DNA of 24,000 nucleotides, taken from Alkalimarinus coralli. GTDB taxonomy: Bacteria > Pseudomonadota > Gammaproteobacteria > Pseudomonadales > Oleiphilaceae. The position numbers were made by a program, and so were the translations under genes. The DNA lies in the NCBI RefSeq assembly GCF_023650515.1, contig NZ_CP096016.1, positions 652,513 through 676,512 on the forward strand, read 5' to 3'. Below are positions 13,781 to 17,762 of the stretch, piece after piece (position 1 is the stretch's first letter; the number at the start of each line of letters is the position of its first letter). The notes under the pieces were generated by a model, which saw nothing but the letters and a program-made list of their open reading frames with translations, was not told the DNA's origin and searched no databases.

Positions 13781-14890
13781 ATGCCTCATTTATCCCCAAT
13801 TGAACAATATCAACACGATTTGAAAAATAGTGGATTTATGCGCGACTCTGCGCAAGAAAATGCTATTAATCATCTTCAGGCGCTTTATGAAAAGCTGGTT
13901 GATGCGGAAAAAAACCAAAAGAAGGGGCGGTTTGCCAAGCTGGCGGCAAAGGTTCAGCGTAAAAAGGCTGCACCTATTAAAGGATTATATTTCTGGGGAG
14001 GGGTAGGTCGAGGAAAAACCTACTTAATGGATATATTTTTTGAGAGTTTGCCTTTTGATCGAAAAATGAGAGTGCACTTTCACCGTTTTATGCAGAGAGT
14101 TCACCATGAACTCGCTGAACTAGAAGGGCAGGCTAACCCATTGGTCGATGTTGCAAAACGTTTTAGTGATGAGGCTAGAGTTATCTGCTTTGATGAGTTT
14201 TTTGTTACAGATATTGGTGATGCAATGATTCTGGGTGGGTTAATGAAAGAGTTGTTTGCTAATGGTGTTTCACTGGTTTGTACATCGAATATAGTGCCCG
14301 ACGGTCTTTACAAGGATGGTTTGCAGCGAGCCCGATTCTTGCCAGCTATTGCATTAGTCAATGAGCACACAGATGTTGTAAATGTTGATGGCGGGACAGA
14401 TTACCGTTTGCGCTCACTTGAGCAAGCGGAGTTATATCATTTTCCATTGGATGATGGGGCAGATAAAAGCTTGGAAGAGAGTTATGGCAGCCTAGCCCTG
14501 GAAGCAGGTGTTCATGGTTTGGCGTTAGACGTTAATGGTCGCCAACTTACTGCCAGAAAGCACTCTGATGACGTTGTCTGGTTTGAGTTTAAAGAGCTGT
14601 GTGATGGGCCTAGGAGTCAAAACGACTACATTGAGCTTGCTCGAGAGTTTCATGCGGTTTTAGTAAGCAATGTGCCTGTGATGGGGGGAGATACCGATGA
14701 TCAGGCAAGACGTTTTATCAATATGATTGATGAGTTTTATGATCGAAATGTGAAAGTTATTATTTCGGCAGAAGCGCCTATTCACAAGCTCTACAGTGGT
14801 GGAAAGCTCAATTTCGAGTTTGAGCGAACTGAAAGCCGCTTACTTGAGATGCAATCTCATGAATATCTGGAAGCGCCACATAAGCCTTGA
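13781..14890 (+). CDS. zapE: Cell division protein ZapE (AFG1-like ATPase, YhcM)
   Basis: Track ORF 13700-14890 has a TTG start. The ATG at 13781 (MPHLSPIEQYQHDLK) matches the ZapE N-terminus. Walker A GGVGRGKTYLMD and Walker B VICFDEF. The stop TGA at 14888-14890 abuts the IS. Confidence 0.85.
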   Translation: MPHLSPIEQYQHDLKNSGFMRDSAQENAINHLQALYEKLVDAEKNQKKGRFAKLAAKVQRKKAAPIKGLYFWGGVGRGKTYLMDIFFESLPFDRKMRVHFHRFMQRVHHELAELEGQANPLVDVAKRFSDEARVICFDEFFVTDIGDAMILGGLMKELFANGVSLVCTSNIVPDGLYKDGLQRARFLPAIALVNEHTDVVNVDGGTDYRLRSLEQAELYHFPLDDGADKSLEESYGSLALEAGVHGLALDVNGRQLTARKHSDDVVWFEFKELCDGPRSQNDYIELAREFHAVLVSNVPVMGGDTDDQARRFINMIDEFYDRNVKVIISAEAPIHKLYSGGKLNFEFERTESRLLEMQSHEYLEAPHKP

Positions 14891-14909
14891 GTACAGTCGT
14901 ATCTCCTTC

Positions 14910-14921
14910 CATCACGGCTAC
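14910..14921. repeat. Left subterminal inverted repeat (IRL) of the IS
   Basis: CATCACGGCTAC is the exact reverse complement of 16531-16542. Confidence 0.8.
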
Positions 14922-15030
14922 AACTGCACATAAGCAATATAGGGTAATGGTATGGACCCGCTTACCAAACGGCTTCAAATGAGCCATGATGAGATTTGCA
15001 TATAACATCAACAGGTAAGGGGTCCACAAA

Positions 15031-16056
15031 ATGAATACTATCACCTATGGTTTGGATTTGGCCAAAAATATCTTTCACGTACATGCAGTCACAAGCAAGG
15101 GTGAGATTGAGATCAAGAAAAAGCTTCGCAGGAAAGAGGTGTTAGCTTTTTTCGCCAAGCGAGAGCCAGGGTTGATAGGCATGGAAGCGTGTGGCGGCTC
15201 TCATTACTGGGCGCGTGAGCTAACAAGGTTGGGTTATACCGCCCGATTAATGAGTCCACAGTTTGTTAAGCCCTATATTAAAGGAAATAAAAATGACGCT
15301 AATGACGCAGAAGGGATATGCGAAGCGGTAACACGACCCAATATGAGGTTTGTGGCGGTAAAAAGCAGCGCACAGCAAGATATATTAATGCTACACAGGG
15401 TGCGAACACAGAGGATCAAGCAGCGGACAGCACTCGCAAACCAGACGAGAGGTCTCTTAAGTGAATATGGGATTGTTATACCGATAGGTATCAGCAATGT
15501 TCGGAAGCATCTTATTGATATTCTGACTGATGCTGATGAAAAAAGGCTAAGTGAATTTGTACGGCCACATTTCAATAGTTTATATGAGGAGTTGCTTCAT
15601 ATTGACGGGTTGGTAAAAGAAATAGATGTAGCATTGAAAACCTATTTCAACACCAGTAAGGACTGTCAGCGGTTAGCAAGCTTGCCGGGGGTTAGTGTCA
15701 TTACAGCAACGGCATTAGTAGGATATTTAGGCGATGTCAGCAATTTCAATAATGGCAGGGAGTTGGCGGCCTACCTAGGCTTAGTGCCTAGACAGCATTC
15801 AACTGGAGGAAGAGAGCTTCTGCTTGGAATTAGTAAACGGGGAGACAGTTACCTTCGAACCCTTCTAATTCATGGCGCGAGGTCTGTACTGAAAGCAGCC
15901 TCAGAGAAGAAAGATAAAGATAGTCTTTGGTTAATGAACTTGCATGCTCGACGTGGTTACAATAAAGCCGCAGTAGGACAAGCTAACAAAACGGCTCGAC
16001 GTATTTGGGCTCTTTTATCAAACGAAACACAGTACGAGGTTAAACAAGCAGCATAG
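15031..16056 (+). CDS. IS110-family DEDD transposase/recombinase
   Basis: 341 aa. The N-terminal RuvC-like DEDD region has YGLDLAK, GMEACGG and NDANDAEGI. The C-terminal Transposase_20-type region reads LASLPGVSVITATALVGYLGDVSNFNNGRELAAYLGLVPRQHSTGGRELLLGISKRGDSYLR. An AAGGGG RBS lies upstream. Confidence 0.92.
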   Translation: MNTITYGLDLAKNIFHVHAVTSKGEIEIKKKLRRKEVLAFFAKREPGLIGMEACGGSHYWARELTRLGYTARLMSPQFVKPYIKGNKNDANDAEGICEAVTRPNMRFVAVKSSAQQDILMLHRVRTQRIKQRTALANQTRGLLSEYGIVIPIGISNVRKHLIDILTDADEKRLSEFVRPHFNSLYEELLHIDGLVKEIDVALKTYFNTSKDCQRLASLPGVSVITATALVGYLGDVSNFNNGRELAAYLGLVPRQHSTGGRELLLGISKRGDSYLRTLLIHGARSVLKAASEKKDKDSLWLMNLHARRGYNKAAVGQANKTARRIWALLSNETQYEVKQAA

Positions 16057-16200
16057 CTGCATGTCAATACACGGTTAAGAGGCAAGGAGTAAGAAGAGTA
16101 AACGGCAGGTTATCTTGCCACTAAATTGCAAAACAGATTCATCGAATGGTAAGACAGATAAGACCGTCTTCTGTGTCACCTGAGAAGCGCACGGGCTCTT

Positions 16201-16543
16201 AGAAGCCGATAGGGTGATGAGTACACTGGAAGAGCGGAATTCCATTGCGGCCGAAGAAAATAAACGTTCTTCACCTGTAGGCCGGATATATGCGAGCAGT
16301 CAATACCTAGAAGATCACTCACCGAATCTGGTTGCAATAAACAGCGGGTCCATATATGCGCTTGCGCACCATTGTATATCTGGGATATTTCGTAATCGTT
16401 GCGGCAACCGGTGCGCAAGCGCACCCTATAATTTAATTCCACATGTGTCAGTTAAGAGGCACTGCTTGCTGACTTGGATAAACCCTGATTCCGCTTTGCT
16501 GCACTAAGGCTGCCAGTGCTAACTAAGACGGTAGCCGTGATGA
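16201..16543 (+). ncRNA. Candidate IS1111-type guide RNA (bridge RNA / seekRNA) region in the 3' non-coding part of the IS; the transcript ends are unknown
   Basis: The region has no credible ORF. It contains a 12/12 copy of the predicted RE|LE junction (16214-16225), a 12-nt complement of the LE leader (16343-16354) and a perfect 14-bp stem (16357-16370 / 16410-16423). It also has an 18-nt segment (16483-16500) complementary to the right chromosomal flank (16544-16561; 16/18, one mismatch being G-U). The structure was read by eye, not modelled. Confidence 0.35.
16531..16542. repeat. Right subterminal inverted repeat (IRR) of the IS
   Basis: GTAGCCGTGATG is the exact reverse complement of 14910-14921. 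Confidence 0.8.
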
Positions 16544-16577
16544 AGCGAAGCGGAATCAAGGAAAGGCTCTATAATGG

Positions 16578-17762
16578 TTAGATCAATTCAATCGCCATAG
16601 CTGTCGCCTCGCCACCGCCAATACACAATGCTGCAACGCCGCGTTTTTTACCGTACTGCTTAAGTGCGTACATCAGTGTAACGAGAAGACGGGAACCTGT
16701 TGATCCTACCGGGTGCCCTTGTGCGCATGCTCCGCCGTGCACATTAACCTTTTGCGGGTCTAGTCCAAGCTCTTTGATAGGCATCATTGCGACCATTGCG
16801 AATGCTTCGTTGATTTCAAACAGGTCAACGTCGTCTTTGCTCCAGTTTGCTTTTTCCAGAACTTTTTCGATTGCACCAACGGGGGCGATAGTAAACTCTG
16901 ACGGGTGTTGGGATTGCGTGCTATGAGCAACAATGCGCGCTAGGGGTTTTAGCCCCTTGGCGTTAGCTTCAGACTCGCTCATTAGCACCAGTGCAGAGGC
17001 GCCATCAGAAATAGAAGAGGCGTTTGCGGCAGTAATCGTGCCGTCTTTTGCGAAAGCAGGACGGAGTGACGGAATCTTCTCAATATTAGCGTTATGCGGT
17101 TGTTCATCATCCTTAACTACGGTTTCACCTTTGCGGCTTTTAACGGTGATTGGGATGATCTCTTGCTCTAACGAGCCATCTTCAATTGCCTTTTGAGCAC
17201 GTTTCAGAGAGTTGATAGCATAGTCATCCATTTCTTCGCGGGTATATCCCTTCTGGCTGGCTACATCTTGGGCAAATGAGCCCATGAGTCGACCCGTTTC
17301 GGCATCTTCCAGCCCGTCCAGAAACATGTGATCCATCGCTTGATCGCCGTGCCCCATACGGTATCCTTTTCTAGCGTTAAGGAGTATGTAGGGCGCGTTA
17401 GACATACTTTCCATTCCGCCTGCGACCATGACGTTGTTGCTCCCTGCTTTTATAAGGTCGTGTGCAAGCATCGCAGCTTTCATGCCTGACCCGCAAAGCT
17501 TGTTGATGGTGGTGCAGCCCGTCGCGTCGGGCAGCCCGGCTTGTCTTGAAGCCTGGCGGGCAGGGCCTTGTTTCAGGCCTGCAGGCAATACGTTACCCAT
17601 TATGACTTCTTGAACATCTTCAGGTTTAATACCTGCTCTAAGAACAGCTTCTCTAATAGCGGTTGAACCTAGCTCTGTCGCGCTAATACTGCTTAGGCTT
17701 CCCTGAAACCCTCCCATTGGCGTTCTGGCACCACTTACAATTACAACGTTTTCTACCGACAT
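16578..17762 (-). CDS. Acetyl-CoA C-acetyltransferase (thiolase II family)
   Basis: 394 aa. MSVENVVIVSGARTPMGGFQGSL N-terminus, active-site Cys context INKLCGSGMKA and C-terminal GGACAQGHPVGSTGSR...LCIGGGEATAMAIE. Confidence 0.9.
   Translation of the reverse strand: MSVENVVIVSGARTPMGGFQGSLSSISATELGSTAIREAVLRAGIKPEDVQEVIMGNVLPAGLKQGPARQASRQAGLPDATGCTTINKLCGSGMKAAMLAHDLIKAGSNNVMVAGGMESMSNAPYILLNARKGYRMGHGDQAMDHMFLDGLEDAETGRLMGSFAQDVASQKGYTREEMDDYAINSLKRAQKAIEDGSLEQEIIPITVKSRKGETVVKDDEQPHNANIEKIPSLRPAFAKDGTITAANASSISDGASALVLMSESEANAKGLKPLARIVAHSTQSQHPSEFTIAPVGAIEKVLEKANWSKDDVDLFEINEAFAMVAMMPIKELGLDPQKVNVHGGACAQGHPVGSTGSRLLVTLMYALKQYGKKRGVAALCIGGGEATAMAIELI

What the first reader, a model, noticed from the sequence alone, without database searches (positions are those of the whole stretch)
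16057..16543. 487-nt structured 3' non-coding region of an IS110/IS1111-family element: candidate guide (bridge/seek) RNA locus
The transposase gene ends at 16056, but the right inverted repeat is not reached until 16531. That leaves 487 nt with no credible ORF, longer than I would expect for a typical IS1111-family non-coding end.

The region is packed with sequence relationships to the element's own ends and to the chromosomal flank. Each is itemised as a separate finding below:
- A flank-complementary segment.
- A copy of the circle junction.
- A complement of the transposase leader.
- A 14-bp stem.
- An 11-bp direct repeat.

In 2024, IS110-group elements were reported to encode a bispecific bridge RNA (IS621). 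IS1111-group elements were reported to encode a seekRNA from the non-coding region downstream of the transposase. In both, short segments match the target and the IS ends. The architecture here fits that class: DEDD recombinase, subterminal IRs and a downstream non-coding region.

The specific RNA, its boundaries and its guide assignment are not established for this element. The size and the junction-mimic arrangement look atypical.
Basis: partly seen in the sequence, partly recalled or inferred. Interest (0 to 1): 0.85.

Follow-up and report, generated by a model that had tools for sequence, protein, structure and literature searches.

The report
Ordinary IS1111 guide-RNA gene, boundaries misdrawn

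Summary
The window carries a 1412-bp IS1111-group element at 14946-16357. An IS-free allele from the same species, Alkalimarinus coralli (L114), reads ...ATAGGGT|GCGCTTGCGCACC... across the site. This fixes both ends to within one shared T and shows there is no target duplication.

The true subterminal repeats are 14951-14962 and 16343-16354. The 3' non-coding region is 301 nt (16057-16357); the family median is 281.5 nt.

This region encodes a conserved two-stem-loop RNA with its core at 16154-16304. [quoted passage not shown] Compensatory base-pair changes are strong.

Four RNA segments track each element's own flanks and ends across 68 relatives:
- a top-strand target guide, AAGCGCAC (16185-16192)
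- a bottom-strand target guide, ATAGGGTG (16209-16216)
- a left-end guide, TCCATT (16241-16246)
- a right-end guide with a flank extension, ATATAT+GCG (16286-16294)

The target is a REP-like palindrome.

They belong to an ancestral intergenic hairpin and a REP pair.

Verdict: a new member of a known kind. Expression was not tested.

The parts
14946..16357 (+). Complete IS1111-group insertion sequence, 1412 bp. The boundary is ambiguous by one shared T (14945 = 16357).
   Evidence: The empty-site allele L114 equals 14870-14945 joined to 16358 onward. The ends are conserved in 70 relatives. The size is typical; the family median is 1407 bp.
14939..14945 (+). Left half of the target, ATAGGGT (5' part of the interrupted REP-like unit).
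   Evidence: Contiguous with 16358 onward in L114. Identical to the RNA B guide.
14951..14962 (+). Left subterminal inverted repeat, TATGGACCCGCT.
   Evidence: Perfect 12-bp IR with 16343-16354 (I5). The ATGGAC.../...GTCCAT core has the same geometry across the family.
15031..16056 (+). DEDD transposase / RNA-guided recombinase gene, 341 aa.
   Evidence: Pfam PF01548 and PF02371. NCBIfam NF033542 'IS110 family RNA-guided transposase', 323.6 bits against a cut-off of 140. D9, E52, D89, D92 and the GL-P----TG motif sit in invariant columns.
16057..16357 (+). True 3' non-coding region, 301 nt.
16154..16304 (+). Conserved core of the seek/bridge RNA (stem-loop 1, linker, stem-loop 2, 3' tail).
   Evidence: CM R1 scores 151 bits here (this sequence was used to build R1). 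R1 has 88 + strand matches in 85 of 93 sources searched; all but two (L103:1-94, L096:449-595) lie downstream of tnp. It also hits IS5075 and IS5708. 90.8% of cells are paired against 69.6% when shuffled, and 490 double-change cells against 154.
16165..16236 (+). Stem-loop 1, the target-binding loop. Outer helix 16165-16176 / 16223-16236, CU/AG pairs 16180-81 / 16220-21, apical hairpin 16194-16197 / 16204-16207.
   Evidence: Pair map. All pairs of helices 3-5 show changes on both sides in relatives.
16185..16192 (+). T guide AAGCGCAC. Complementary to the top-strand target GT|GCGCTT (14944-45 plus 16358-63).
   Evidence: 8 of 10 in register in the window. Across the family, cognate 6.28/10 against non-cognate 3.21, 0 of 5000 permutations.
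16209..16216 (+). B guide ATAGGGTG. Identical to the top strand ATAGGGT|G, so it would pair with the bottom strand.
   Evidence: 8 of 8 in the window. Across the family, 6.43/8 against 3.07, 0 of 5000. It overlaps the T-guide footprint by GTG.
16241..16246 (+). Left-end (donor) guide TCCATT. Complementary to the IS start AATGG (14946-14950).
   Evidence: Across the family, 4.53/5 against 4.06, 0 of 5000. Rare variants co-change: CTATC with AATAG, TCATC with AATGA. This is the weakest of the four guides.
16249..16283 (+). Stem-loop 2. GGCC/GGCC helix 16249-52 / 16280-83, with a variable inner hairpin GAAGAA 16253-58 / TTCTTC 16267-72.
   Evidence: Helix 6 shows covariation, for example CG to AU in 29 sequences. 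The inner hairpin differs in sequence but is kept in relatives.
16286..16294 (+). Right-end (donor) guide ATATAT, equal to the last 6 nt of the IS, followed by GCG, equal to the first 3 nt of the right flank (a handshake-like extension).
   Evidence: Four variable RE positions: 3.93/4 against 2.70, 0 of 5000. Flank extension: 0.84/2 against 0.59, 2 of 5000.
16332..16337 (+). -35 box TTGCAA of the predicted circle-junction promoter. After a 17-nt spacer, the -10 TATAAT is formed by 16355-16357 plus 14946-14948.
   Evidence: Read from the sequence. 64 of 70 relatives have TTGnnn 16-18 nt upstream of a junction-spanning -10 (TATAAT in 30, TACAAT in 20).
16343..16354 (+). Right subterminal inverted repeat, AGCGGGTCCATA.
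   Evidence: I5. It lies 39 nt after the RNA core; across the family this distance is almost always 28-41 nt.
16358..16370 (+). Right half of the target, GCGCTTGCGCACC (the rest of the interrupted REP-like unit). Chromosomal.
   Evidence: L114. Joined to 14938-14945 it is a perfect 21-bp inverted copy of 16410-16430.
16410..16431 (+). Intact REP-like unit GGTGCGCAAGCGCACCCTATAA, partner of the interrupted one. Not part of the IS.
Evidence: I3.
16483..16561 (.). Imperfect hairpin next to the thiolase stop (16578, minus strand). Not part of the IS.
   Evidence: I1. A homologous hairpin is present in the IS-free relatives L115 and L116.

Best explanation
The window holds an intact 1412-bp IS1111-group insertion sequence (14946-16357). 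It sits in one unit of a REP-like palindrome pair between zapE and a thiolase gene of Alkalimarinus coralli.

Its 301-nt 3' non-coding region encodes a seekRNA/bridge RNA on the same strand as the transposase gene. The conserved core of about 150 nt runs from 16154 to 16304.

Stem-loop 1 has an internal loop with two target guides. Its 5' side (AAGCGCAC) can pair with the top strand across the insertion point, GT|GCGCTT. Its 3' side (ATAGGGTG) has the top-strand sequence ATAGGGT|G and so can pair with the bottom strand. Their footprints overlap at the crossover.

Single-stranded segments flank stem-loop 2. TCCATT is complementary to the IS start AATGG. ATATAT copies the IS end and continues as GCG, which copies the right flank.

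Inferred by analogy with ISEc11 and IS621, not shown here:
- The RNA binds the DEDD recombinase.
- The element excises as a circle whose RE|LE joint creates a TTGCAA-17-TATAAT promoter.
- The RNA aligns the circle junction with the REP target for insertion without target duplication.
For: Boundaries:
- The empty-site allele L114 matches exactly.
- Subterminal IRs are at 14951-62 / 16343-54.
- The end geometry is the same in 70 relatives.

RNA:
- A covariance model built from 12 relatives matches 85 of 93 sources searched on the + strand, in all but two matches downstream of the transposase gene.
- It also matches IS5075 (48.9 bits), IS5708 (37.8 bits) and a Klebsiella plasmid IS (88 bits).
- 90.8% of cells are paired against 69.6% shuffled and 29-47% slid. 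20 of 27 pairs show changes on both sides. Many G-U pairs fit the + strand.

Guides, cognate against non-cognate over 68 elements:
- T guide 6.28/10 against 3.21.
- B guide 6.43/8 against 3.07.
- RE guide 3.93/4 against 2.70.
- LE guide 4.53/5 against 4.06.
- All four reached 0 of 5000 permutations.
- Flank extension 0.84/2 against 0.59, 2 of 5000.
- Window values: 8/10, 8/8, 4/4, 4/5 and 2/2.

Agreement with the literature:
- The T guide lies 5' of the B guide and their footprints overlap in the target, as described for IS1111 seekRNAs (PMC11187229).
- The 151-nt core is close to the 154-nt long seekRNA of ISEc11.
- The junction promoter is conserved in 64 of 70 relatives.
- NCBIfam names the protein an 'IS110 family RNA-guided transposase'.
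Against: - There is no transcript, RNP or transposition evidence for this element.
- The RNA ends are unknown, and conservation continues at least about 35 nt upstream of 16154.
- No sigma-70-like promoter was found upstream on the + strand.
- Single-sequence folding is no better than shuffles (z = -0.06 and -0.33).
- No Rfam family reached threshold.
- The covariation alignment was fitted to the model.
- Evidence for the LE guide rests on few variants. The same bases can also pair with an upstream AATGG within the RNA.
- Only one copy of this IS was seen for this species.
Confidence: 0.88

Rival explanations
1. The IS spans about 14910-16543 with IRs CATCACGGCTAC / GTAGCCGTGATG. It has an unusually long 487-nt non-coding region whose guide is 16483-16500, pairing with the right flank.
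For: A perfect 12-bp IR exists. 16483-16500 is complementary to 16544-16561 (I1).
Against: - The IS-free allele L114 retains 14910-14945 and 16358-16561 contiguously.
- IS-free relatives L115 and L116 have the same hairpin arms about 20 nt apart.
- Homologous IS copies lose similarity exactly at 14946 and 16357.
- No relative has an NCR of 487 nt or more.
Confidence: 0.01
2. The conserved 3' region works as DNA (transposase-binding sites or end-recognition sequences) or as single-stranded DNA structure, not as an RNA.
For: There is no expression data here. The donor-like segments ATATATGCG and AATGG/CCATT are DNA copies of the ends. In L063 the DNA that encodes the RE guide appears to have been used as a recombination site.
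Against: - Compensatory changes keep helices intact while the sequence changes.
- Frequent G-U pairs are tolerated only on the + strand.
- The region is homologous to the NCR of IS1111 elements, including IS5075.
- In ISEc11, ISPa11 and ISKpn4 the NCR-derived RNA co-purifies with the transposase and complements in trans (PMC11187229).
Confidence: 0.05
3. The RNA is mainly a regulator of transposase expression (an antisense or sponge sRNA, as proposed for Ssr9/Asr9 of ISPpu9) and not a recombination guide.
For: - RNA helix 5 (GGCU...AGCC) resembles a conserved hairpin in the tnp 5' leader at 14971-14985, and 16199-16213 is 80% complementary to 14965-14979 (I6).
- ISPpu9 carries a dispensable sRNA downstream of tnp (PMC12288879).
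Against: - The leader hairpin and RNA helix 5 do not covary. In L013 the RNA has GGCA/TGCC while the leader has GGCT/AGCC.
- A regulator would not need loop bases that track each element's flanking target.
Confidence: 0.04

Closest known systems
IS1111-family seekRNAs of ISEc11, ISPa11, ISKpn4 and ISPst6 (Siddiquee et al. 2024, PMC11187229)
   Same: - DEDD transposase of 330-350 aa with a GL-P----S/TG motif.
- Subterminal IRs with short terminal extensions.
- The long NCR lies downstream of tnp.
- The RNA has a top-strand match 5' of a bottom-strand match in a stem-loop, with footprints that overlap at the insertion point.
- No target duplication.
- A junction promoter.
- REP targeting, as in ISPa11.
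- A core of about 150 nt, against a 154-nt long and an 82-nt short seekRNA.
   Different: - The protein is at most about 52% identical to any named element I could retrieve.
- The target sequence is different (ATAGGGT|GCGCTT).
- Nothing has been tested experimentally.
- I could not align it directly to the published seekRNA sequences. A copy annotated as ISShdy1 family (not shown here to be related to ISEc11) matched the model only weakly (12.5 bits).
IS621 bridge RNA (Durrant et al. 2024, PMC11208160; Hiraizumi et al. 2024, PMC11208158; PMC13626964)
   Same: - Bispecific logic: one loop for the target and one region for the donor.
- Each reads the left half on one strand and the right half on the other.
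- A shared core base between the donor end and the target.
- Donor-side bases that match the insertion product, like handshake guides.
   Different: - The RNA is encoded 3' of the recombinase gene, not in the left end.
- The strand order of the guides is reversed.
- The subterminal IRs are long.
- The donor segments flank a stem-loop (multiloop-like) rather than lining a simple internal loop.
- The shared core appears to be 1 nt plus a conserved G at +1, rather than the CT dinucleotide.
IS5075 / IS4321 (IS1111 family; they target the IRs of Tn21-family transposons)
   Same: The same RNA family lies downstream of tnp by covariance model (48.9 bits, E = 1e-11). The end architecture is the same.
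   Different: 39% protein identity. A different target.
ISPpu9 / ISPpu10 of Pseudomonas putida (PMC12288879)
   Same: IS110-family elements that insert at a fixed position in REP sequences, preferentially in REP pairs (BIMEs).
   Different: - ISPpu9 has A/B boxes, an antisense RNA and a hitch-hiking ssr9 MITE.
- ISPpu9 has no junction promoter.
- None of these features is seen here.

Membership tests
IS1111 group of the IS110 family | DEDD (RuvC-like) transposase with PF01548 and PF02371 domains, 330-350 aa. | tested here: met
   341 aa. PF01548 E = 3e-17 and PF02371 E = 3e-23. NF033542 at 323.6 bits. D9, E52, D89 and D92 are invariant.
IS1111 group of the IS110 family | C-terminal GL-P----S/TG motif. 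| tested here: met
   GLVPRQHSTG at aa 250-259. G250, V252, Q255, S257 and G259 are invariant and L251 and P253 nearly invariant in 20 homologues.
IS1111 group of the IS110 family | Subterminal inverted repeats with a few extra bases at each end. | tested here: met
   12-bp perfect IR at 14951-62 / 16343-54, with 5 nt (AATGG) outside on the left and 3 nt (TAT) on the right. If the shared T is assigned to the left end, 7 nt precede the ATGGAC core, as described for ISEc11.
IS1111 group of the IS110 family | The longer non-coding region lies downstream of tnp. | tested here: met
   301 nt downstream against 85 nt upstream.
IS1111 group of the IS110 family | Site- and orientation-specific insertion without target duplication. 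| tested here: met
   Empty site L114 compared with the filled window shows no duplicated bases. Relatives at 80-90% identity sit at the same position of the same REP-like sequence.
IS1111 group of the IS110 family | A circular intermediate whose junction forms a promoter. | not testable with these tools
   Predicted only: TTGCAA-17 nt-TAT|AAT. The pattern is kept in 64 of 70 relatives.
seekRNA / bridge RNA | A conserved structured RNA encoded in the NCR. | tested here: met
   CM matches in 85 of 93 sources searched and in IS5075 and IS5708. Covariation in 20 of 27 pairs. Structure only; expression was not shown.
seekRNA / bridge RNA | [quoted passage not shown] | tested here: met
   16185-92 is complementary to GT|GCGCTT. 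16209-16 is identical to ATAGGGT|G. They overlap at GTG.
seekRNA / bridge RNA | The guide bases change with the target in related elements (natural reprogramming). | tested here: met
   Cognate against non-cognate scores for 68 elements, 0 of 5000 permutations for the T and B guides.
seekRNA / bridge RNA | Donor-end recognition by the same RNA. | tested here: met
   RE guide 3.93/4 against 2.70 (0 of 5000). LE guide 4.53/5 against 4.06 (0 of 5000), with a small effect and few variants.
seekRNA / bridge RNA | The RNA is made, binds the transposase and is required for circle formation and insertion. | not testable with these tools
   No expression or biochemical data. No promoter-like site was found upstream.
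Rfam curated RNA families | A match at the gathering score to any family. | tested here: not met
   0 matches at gathering. Only chance-level hits at E up to 10.
REP/BIME target | A short imperfect palindrome repeated in intergenic regions, often in inverted pairs. | tested here: inconclusive
   One inverted pair here (the interrupted unit plus 16410-16431). The same or similar units flank related IS copies in other genomes (L017, L029, L002-L004). Genome-wide copy number was not available.

The most novel reading that the evidence does not exclude
The donor side of this clade's RNA may do more than is described for IS1111 seekRNAs.

- The RNA carries both a copy of the IS start (AATGG, 16145-49) and its complement (CCATT, 16242-46). 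In the few family variants seen, these change together with the left end.
- The right-end guide runs 1-3 nt into the right flank.

This could mean a left-end-mimic helix that opens on donor binding, acting as a switch. It could also mean built-in recognition of the integrated right junction that sets the balance between excision and insertion.

The tandem duplication in L063 hints that the DNA encoding the right-end guide can itself act as a pseudo-end.
Probability: 0.15. Interest if true: 0.5.

Novelty: new member of a known kind. Interest (0 to 1): 0.3.

Why it matters
This is mostly a corrective result. An apparently oversized, "junction-mimicking" non-coding region turns out to be a standard IS1111 element plus neighbouring REP and hairpin sequence.

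It still has modest value:
- It is a cleanly delimited, apparently intact RNA-guided recombinase with its guide RNA and its exact target, and filled and empty alleles exist in one species.
- The 68-element comparison gives a register-level map of four guide segments and a conserved junction promoter for this IS1111 clade. That map could help annotate IS ends, which ISfinder often records wrongly for this family according to PMC11187229, and help choose orthologues for engineering.

Tried and rejected
- **Rfam.** Scans at gathering and permissive thresholds found nothing relevant.
- **Single-sequence folding.** Folds of the NCR were no better than shuffles, so they were uninformative.
- **Exact-sequence look-up of the transposase.** Not on record.
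- **Internal sigma-70 promoter for the RNA.** None was found at the tool's threshold. The conserved TTGCAA/TTGCGA upstream of the core (16128-33) looked like a -35 box. In most relatives it is one arm of a GATTGC...GCAATC hairpin, so I do not call it a promoter.
- **"Complement of the transposase leader".** 14965-79 is 80% complementary to 16199-213. Both regions contain GGCT/AGCC hairpins, but they do not covary (L013), so I treat the match as a by-product.
- **11-bp direct repeat (16074 / 16451).** It is real. One copy is in the poorly conserved 5' part of the NCR; it differs in L017 and L018 and is absent in L029. The other copy is chromosomal. About 0.4 such repeats are expected by chance in 1.9 kb, so I treat it as chance.
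- **12-bp IR as IS ends or MITE ends.** Rejected by L114, L115 and L116.
- **Fixed-register test of the upstream AATGG copy against the left end.** Not significant (201 of 5000) because the offset varies.
- **ISShdy1 copy on an E. coli plasmid.** It matched the model only weakly and I could not find its ends.

Full report
**1. What is at the coordinates**

The ORF 15031-16056 (+) encodes a 341-aa protein with the DEDD_Tnp_IS110 and Transposase_20 domains. NCBIfam places it in NF033542, "IS110 family RNA-guided transposase", at 323.6 bits against a cut-off of 140. The neighbours are zapE (AFG1-like ATPase, ending at 14890, + strand) and a thiolase gene (stop at 16578, - strand).

The same repeat scan also shows a second perfect 12-bp IR, TATGGACCCGCT / AGCGGGTCCATA, at 14951-62 / 16343-54.

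**2. Where the element really ends**

Homologous elements from Oleiphilus and other gammaproteobacterial genomes and metagenomes are 42-90% identical at the protein level. They are similar to the window only from ...AATGGTATGGACCC... to ...GGGTCCATATAT, and each has different flanks.

ZapE is 100% identical to that of Alkalimarinus coralli. A short assembly from that species (L114) carries the same zapE followed by ...AAGCAATATAGGGTGCGCTTGCGCACCATTG.... This equals window 14870-14945 joined directly to 16358-16561, with one SNP.

- The IS is therefore 14946-16357, 1412 bp.
- There is no target duplication.
- The boundary is ambiguous by one shared T (14945 = 16357).
- The NCR is 301 nt and the IS is 1412 bp. 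In 68 relatives the medians are 281.5 nt (IQR 269-302, maximum 477) and 1407 bp. Nothing about the size is atypical.

**3.

Joining the flanks gives TATAGGGTGCGCTTGCGCACC. This is a perfect inverted copy of 16410-16430 (GGTGCGCAAGCGCACCCTATA). The IS therefore sits in one unit of a REP-like inverted pair, and the "14-bp stem" is that pair.

Related species with 90% identical ZapE (L115, L116) have only about 82-95 nt between zapE and the thiolase gene. That spacer is one hairpin, CATCAAGGCTAC...GTAGCCGTGATGAAGCGAAGCGGAATCAAGG. In A. coralli they are separated by about 190 nt of REP-containing DNA, and in this strain also by the IS. The "flank-complementary segment" 16483-16500 belongs to the same chromosomal hairpin.

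**4. The RNA**

I aligned the NCR cores of 12 relatives (A2) and derived a consensus structure from the alignment. I then built covariance model R1 from it.

- R1 gives 88 matches on the + strand in 85 of 93 sources searched; all but two (L103:1-94, L096:449-595) lie downstream of tnp.
- It also matches IS5075 (48.9 bits), IS5708 (37.8 bits) and a Klebsiella plasmid IS (88 bits), and matches an ISShdy1-family copy weakly.
- On the 87 distinct sequences, 90.8% of cells are paired. The figure is 69.6% in column shuffles and 29-47% when partners are slid.
- 490 cells have both sides changed, against 154 expected. Every pair of the long helix of stem-loop 1 and of its apical hairpin shows double changes.
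- Caveats: the alignment was fitted to the model, and the window's own sequence was used to build it.

In window coordinates, stem-loop 1 is 16165-16236. It has an internal loop and an apical hairpin at 16194-97 / 16204-07. Stem-loop 2 is 16249-16283.

**5. Guides**

I located each relative's ends from the conserved geometry ([flank]|AATGGN-ATGGAC... and ...GTCCAT-NNNN|[flank]). I then compared RNA segments in fixed register with their own flanks and with the flanks of other elements (68 elements).

| Segment | Relation to DNA | Cognate | Non-cognate | Permutations reaching observed |
|---|---|---|---|---|
| 5' side of the loop (T guide) | reverse complement of the last 2 left-flank nt plus the first 8 right-flank nt | 6.28/10 | 3.21 | 0 of 5000 |
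| 3' side of the loop (B guide) | equals the last 7 left-flank nt plus 1 | 6.43/8 | 3.07 | 0 of 5000 |
| Segment 3' of stem-loop 2 (RE guide) | copies the last IS bases | 3.93/4 | 2.70 | 0 of 5000 |
| Extension of the RE guide | continues into the right flank | 0.84/2 | 0.59 | 2 of 5000 |
| Segment 5' of stem-loop 2 (LE guide) | complementary to the IS start | 4.53/5 | 4.06 | 0 of 5000 |

In the window these segments are:
- AAGCGCAC at 16185-92
- ATAGGGTG at 16209-16
- ATATAT+GCG at 16286-94
- TCCATT at 16241-46

The T guide precedes the B guide and their footprints overlap. This is what Siddiquee et al. describe for IS1111 seekRNAs. The flank extension resembles the handshake guides of IS621.

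**6. Junction promoter**

Joining 16357 to 14946 gives TTGCAA (16332-37), a 17-nt spacer, then TAT|AAT. Of 70 relatives, 64 keep TTGnnn 16-18 nt upstream of a junction-spanning -10 hexamer. This matches the Pjunc known for ISEc11 (PMC11187229).

**7. Mechanism, and what is shown or inferred**

Shown here:
- the element's ends and its target
- conserved RNA-type structure
- covariation of four segments with target and ends

Inferred from ISEc11 and IS621:
- transcription and processing of the RNA
- binding to the recombinase
- circle formation
- RNA-guided strand exchange

**8. Comparison and novelty**

All sequence-testable defining features of the IS1111 group and of seekRNA/bridge RNAs are met. 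Expression and function are untestable here. No Rfam family matches.

The element is a new member of a known kind: at most 52% protein identity to the named or annotated elements retrieved, and a new REP-type target. The coordinates, the size argument and the guide assignment were not.

**9. Things that led nowhere**

- Single-sequence folds.
- The promoter scan.
- The TTGCAA upstream of the core as a possible promoter.
- The leader/RNA complementarity.
- The 11-bp repeat.

Noticed in passing
L114 against window 14946-16357: Filled and empty alleles of the same site exist in Alkalimarinus coralli (ZapE 100% identical). The insertion is therefore polymorphic and probably recent.
   Followed up: yes
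window 14891-14945 and 16358-16577; L115:3638-3760; L116:3590-3700: A. coralli has about 190 nt more than related species between zapE and the thiolase gene. The extra DNA includes a REP pair. Window 16477-16561 looks like a second, diverged copy of the zapE 3' end plus the intergenic hairpin (AAACCCTGATTCC...). This suggests an older duplication or insertion at this spot.
   Followed up: partly
L063:1380-1540: There is a tandem duplication of about 76 bp at the IS 3' end. It runs from the DNA encoding the right-end guide (GGATGTAC|GGG) to the real right end (CCATGTAC|GGG). It looks as if the internal end-mimic had been used as a recombination site.
   Followed up: partly
window 14971-14985: Hairpin GGCTTCAAATGAGCC in the transposase 5' leader. 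It is conserved in relatives down to 47% protein identity. Its GGCT/AGCC stem is the same as RNA helix 5 (16194-16207), but the two do not covary. Function unknown.
   Followed up: partly
window 16103-16119: Hairpin GGCAGG-TTAT-CTTGCC shortly after the tnp stop. It has compensatory changes in relatives (L029 has GACAGG/TTTGTC). It may be a processing or termination signal upstream of the RNA core.
   Followed up: partly
window 16145-16149 and 16242-16246: AATGG upstream of stem-loop 1 can pair with CCATT downstream of it, and both correspond to the first 5 nt of the IS. In the few family variants all three change together (GATAG/CTATC/AATAG and GATGA/TCATC/AATGA). Conservation of the RNA region extends at least 35 nt upstream of the model start.
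   Followed up: partly
family-wide (L001-L109), target position +1 and -1: The first base of the right flank is G in nearly all elements. The last base of the left flank equals the last base of the IS (T, C or A). This suggests a 1-nt shared core plus a fixed G, unlike the CT core of IS621.
   Followed up: partly
window 16214-16507 (+) and 16176-16442 (-): ORFs of 97 and 88 aa run across the IS/chromosome boundary. The 97-aa + strand ORF, the only one tested, has no Pfam match. They are artefacts of the junction, not genes.
   Followed up: partly
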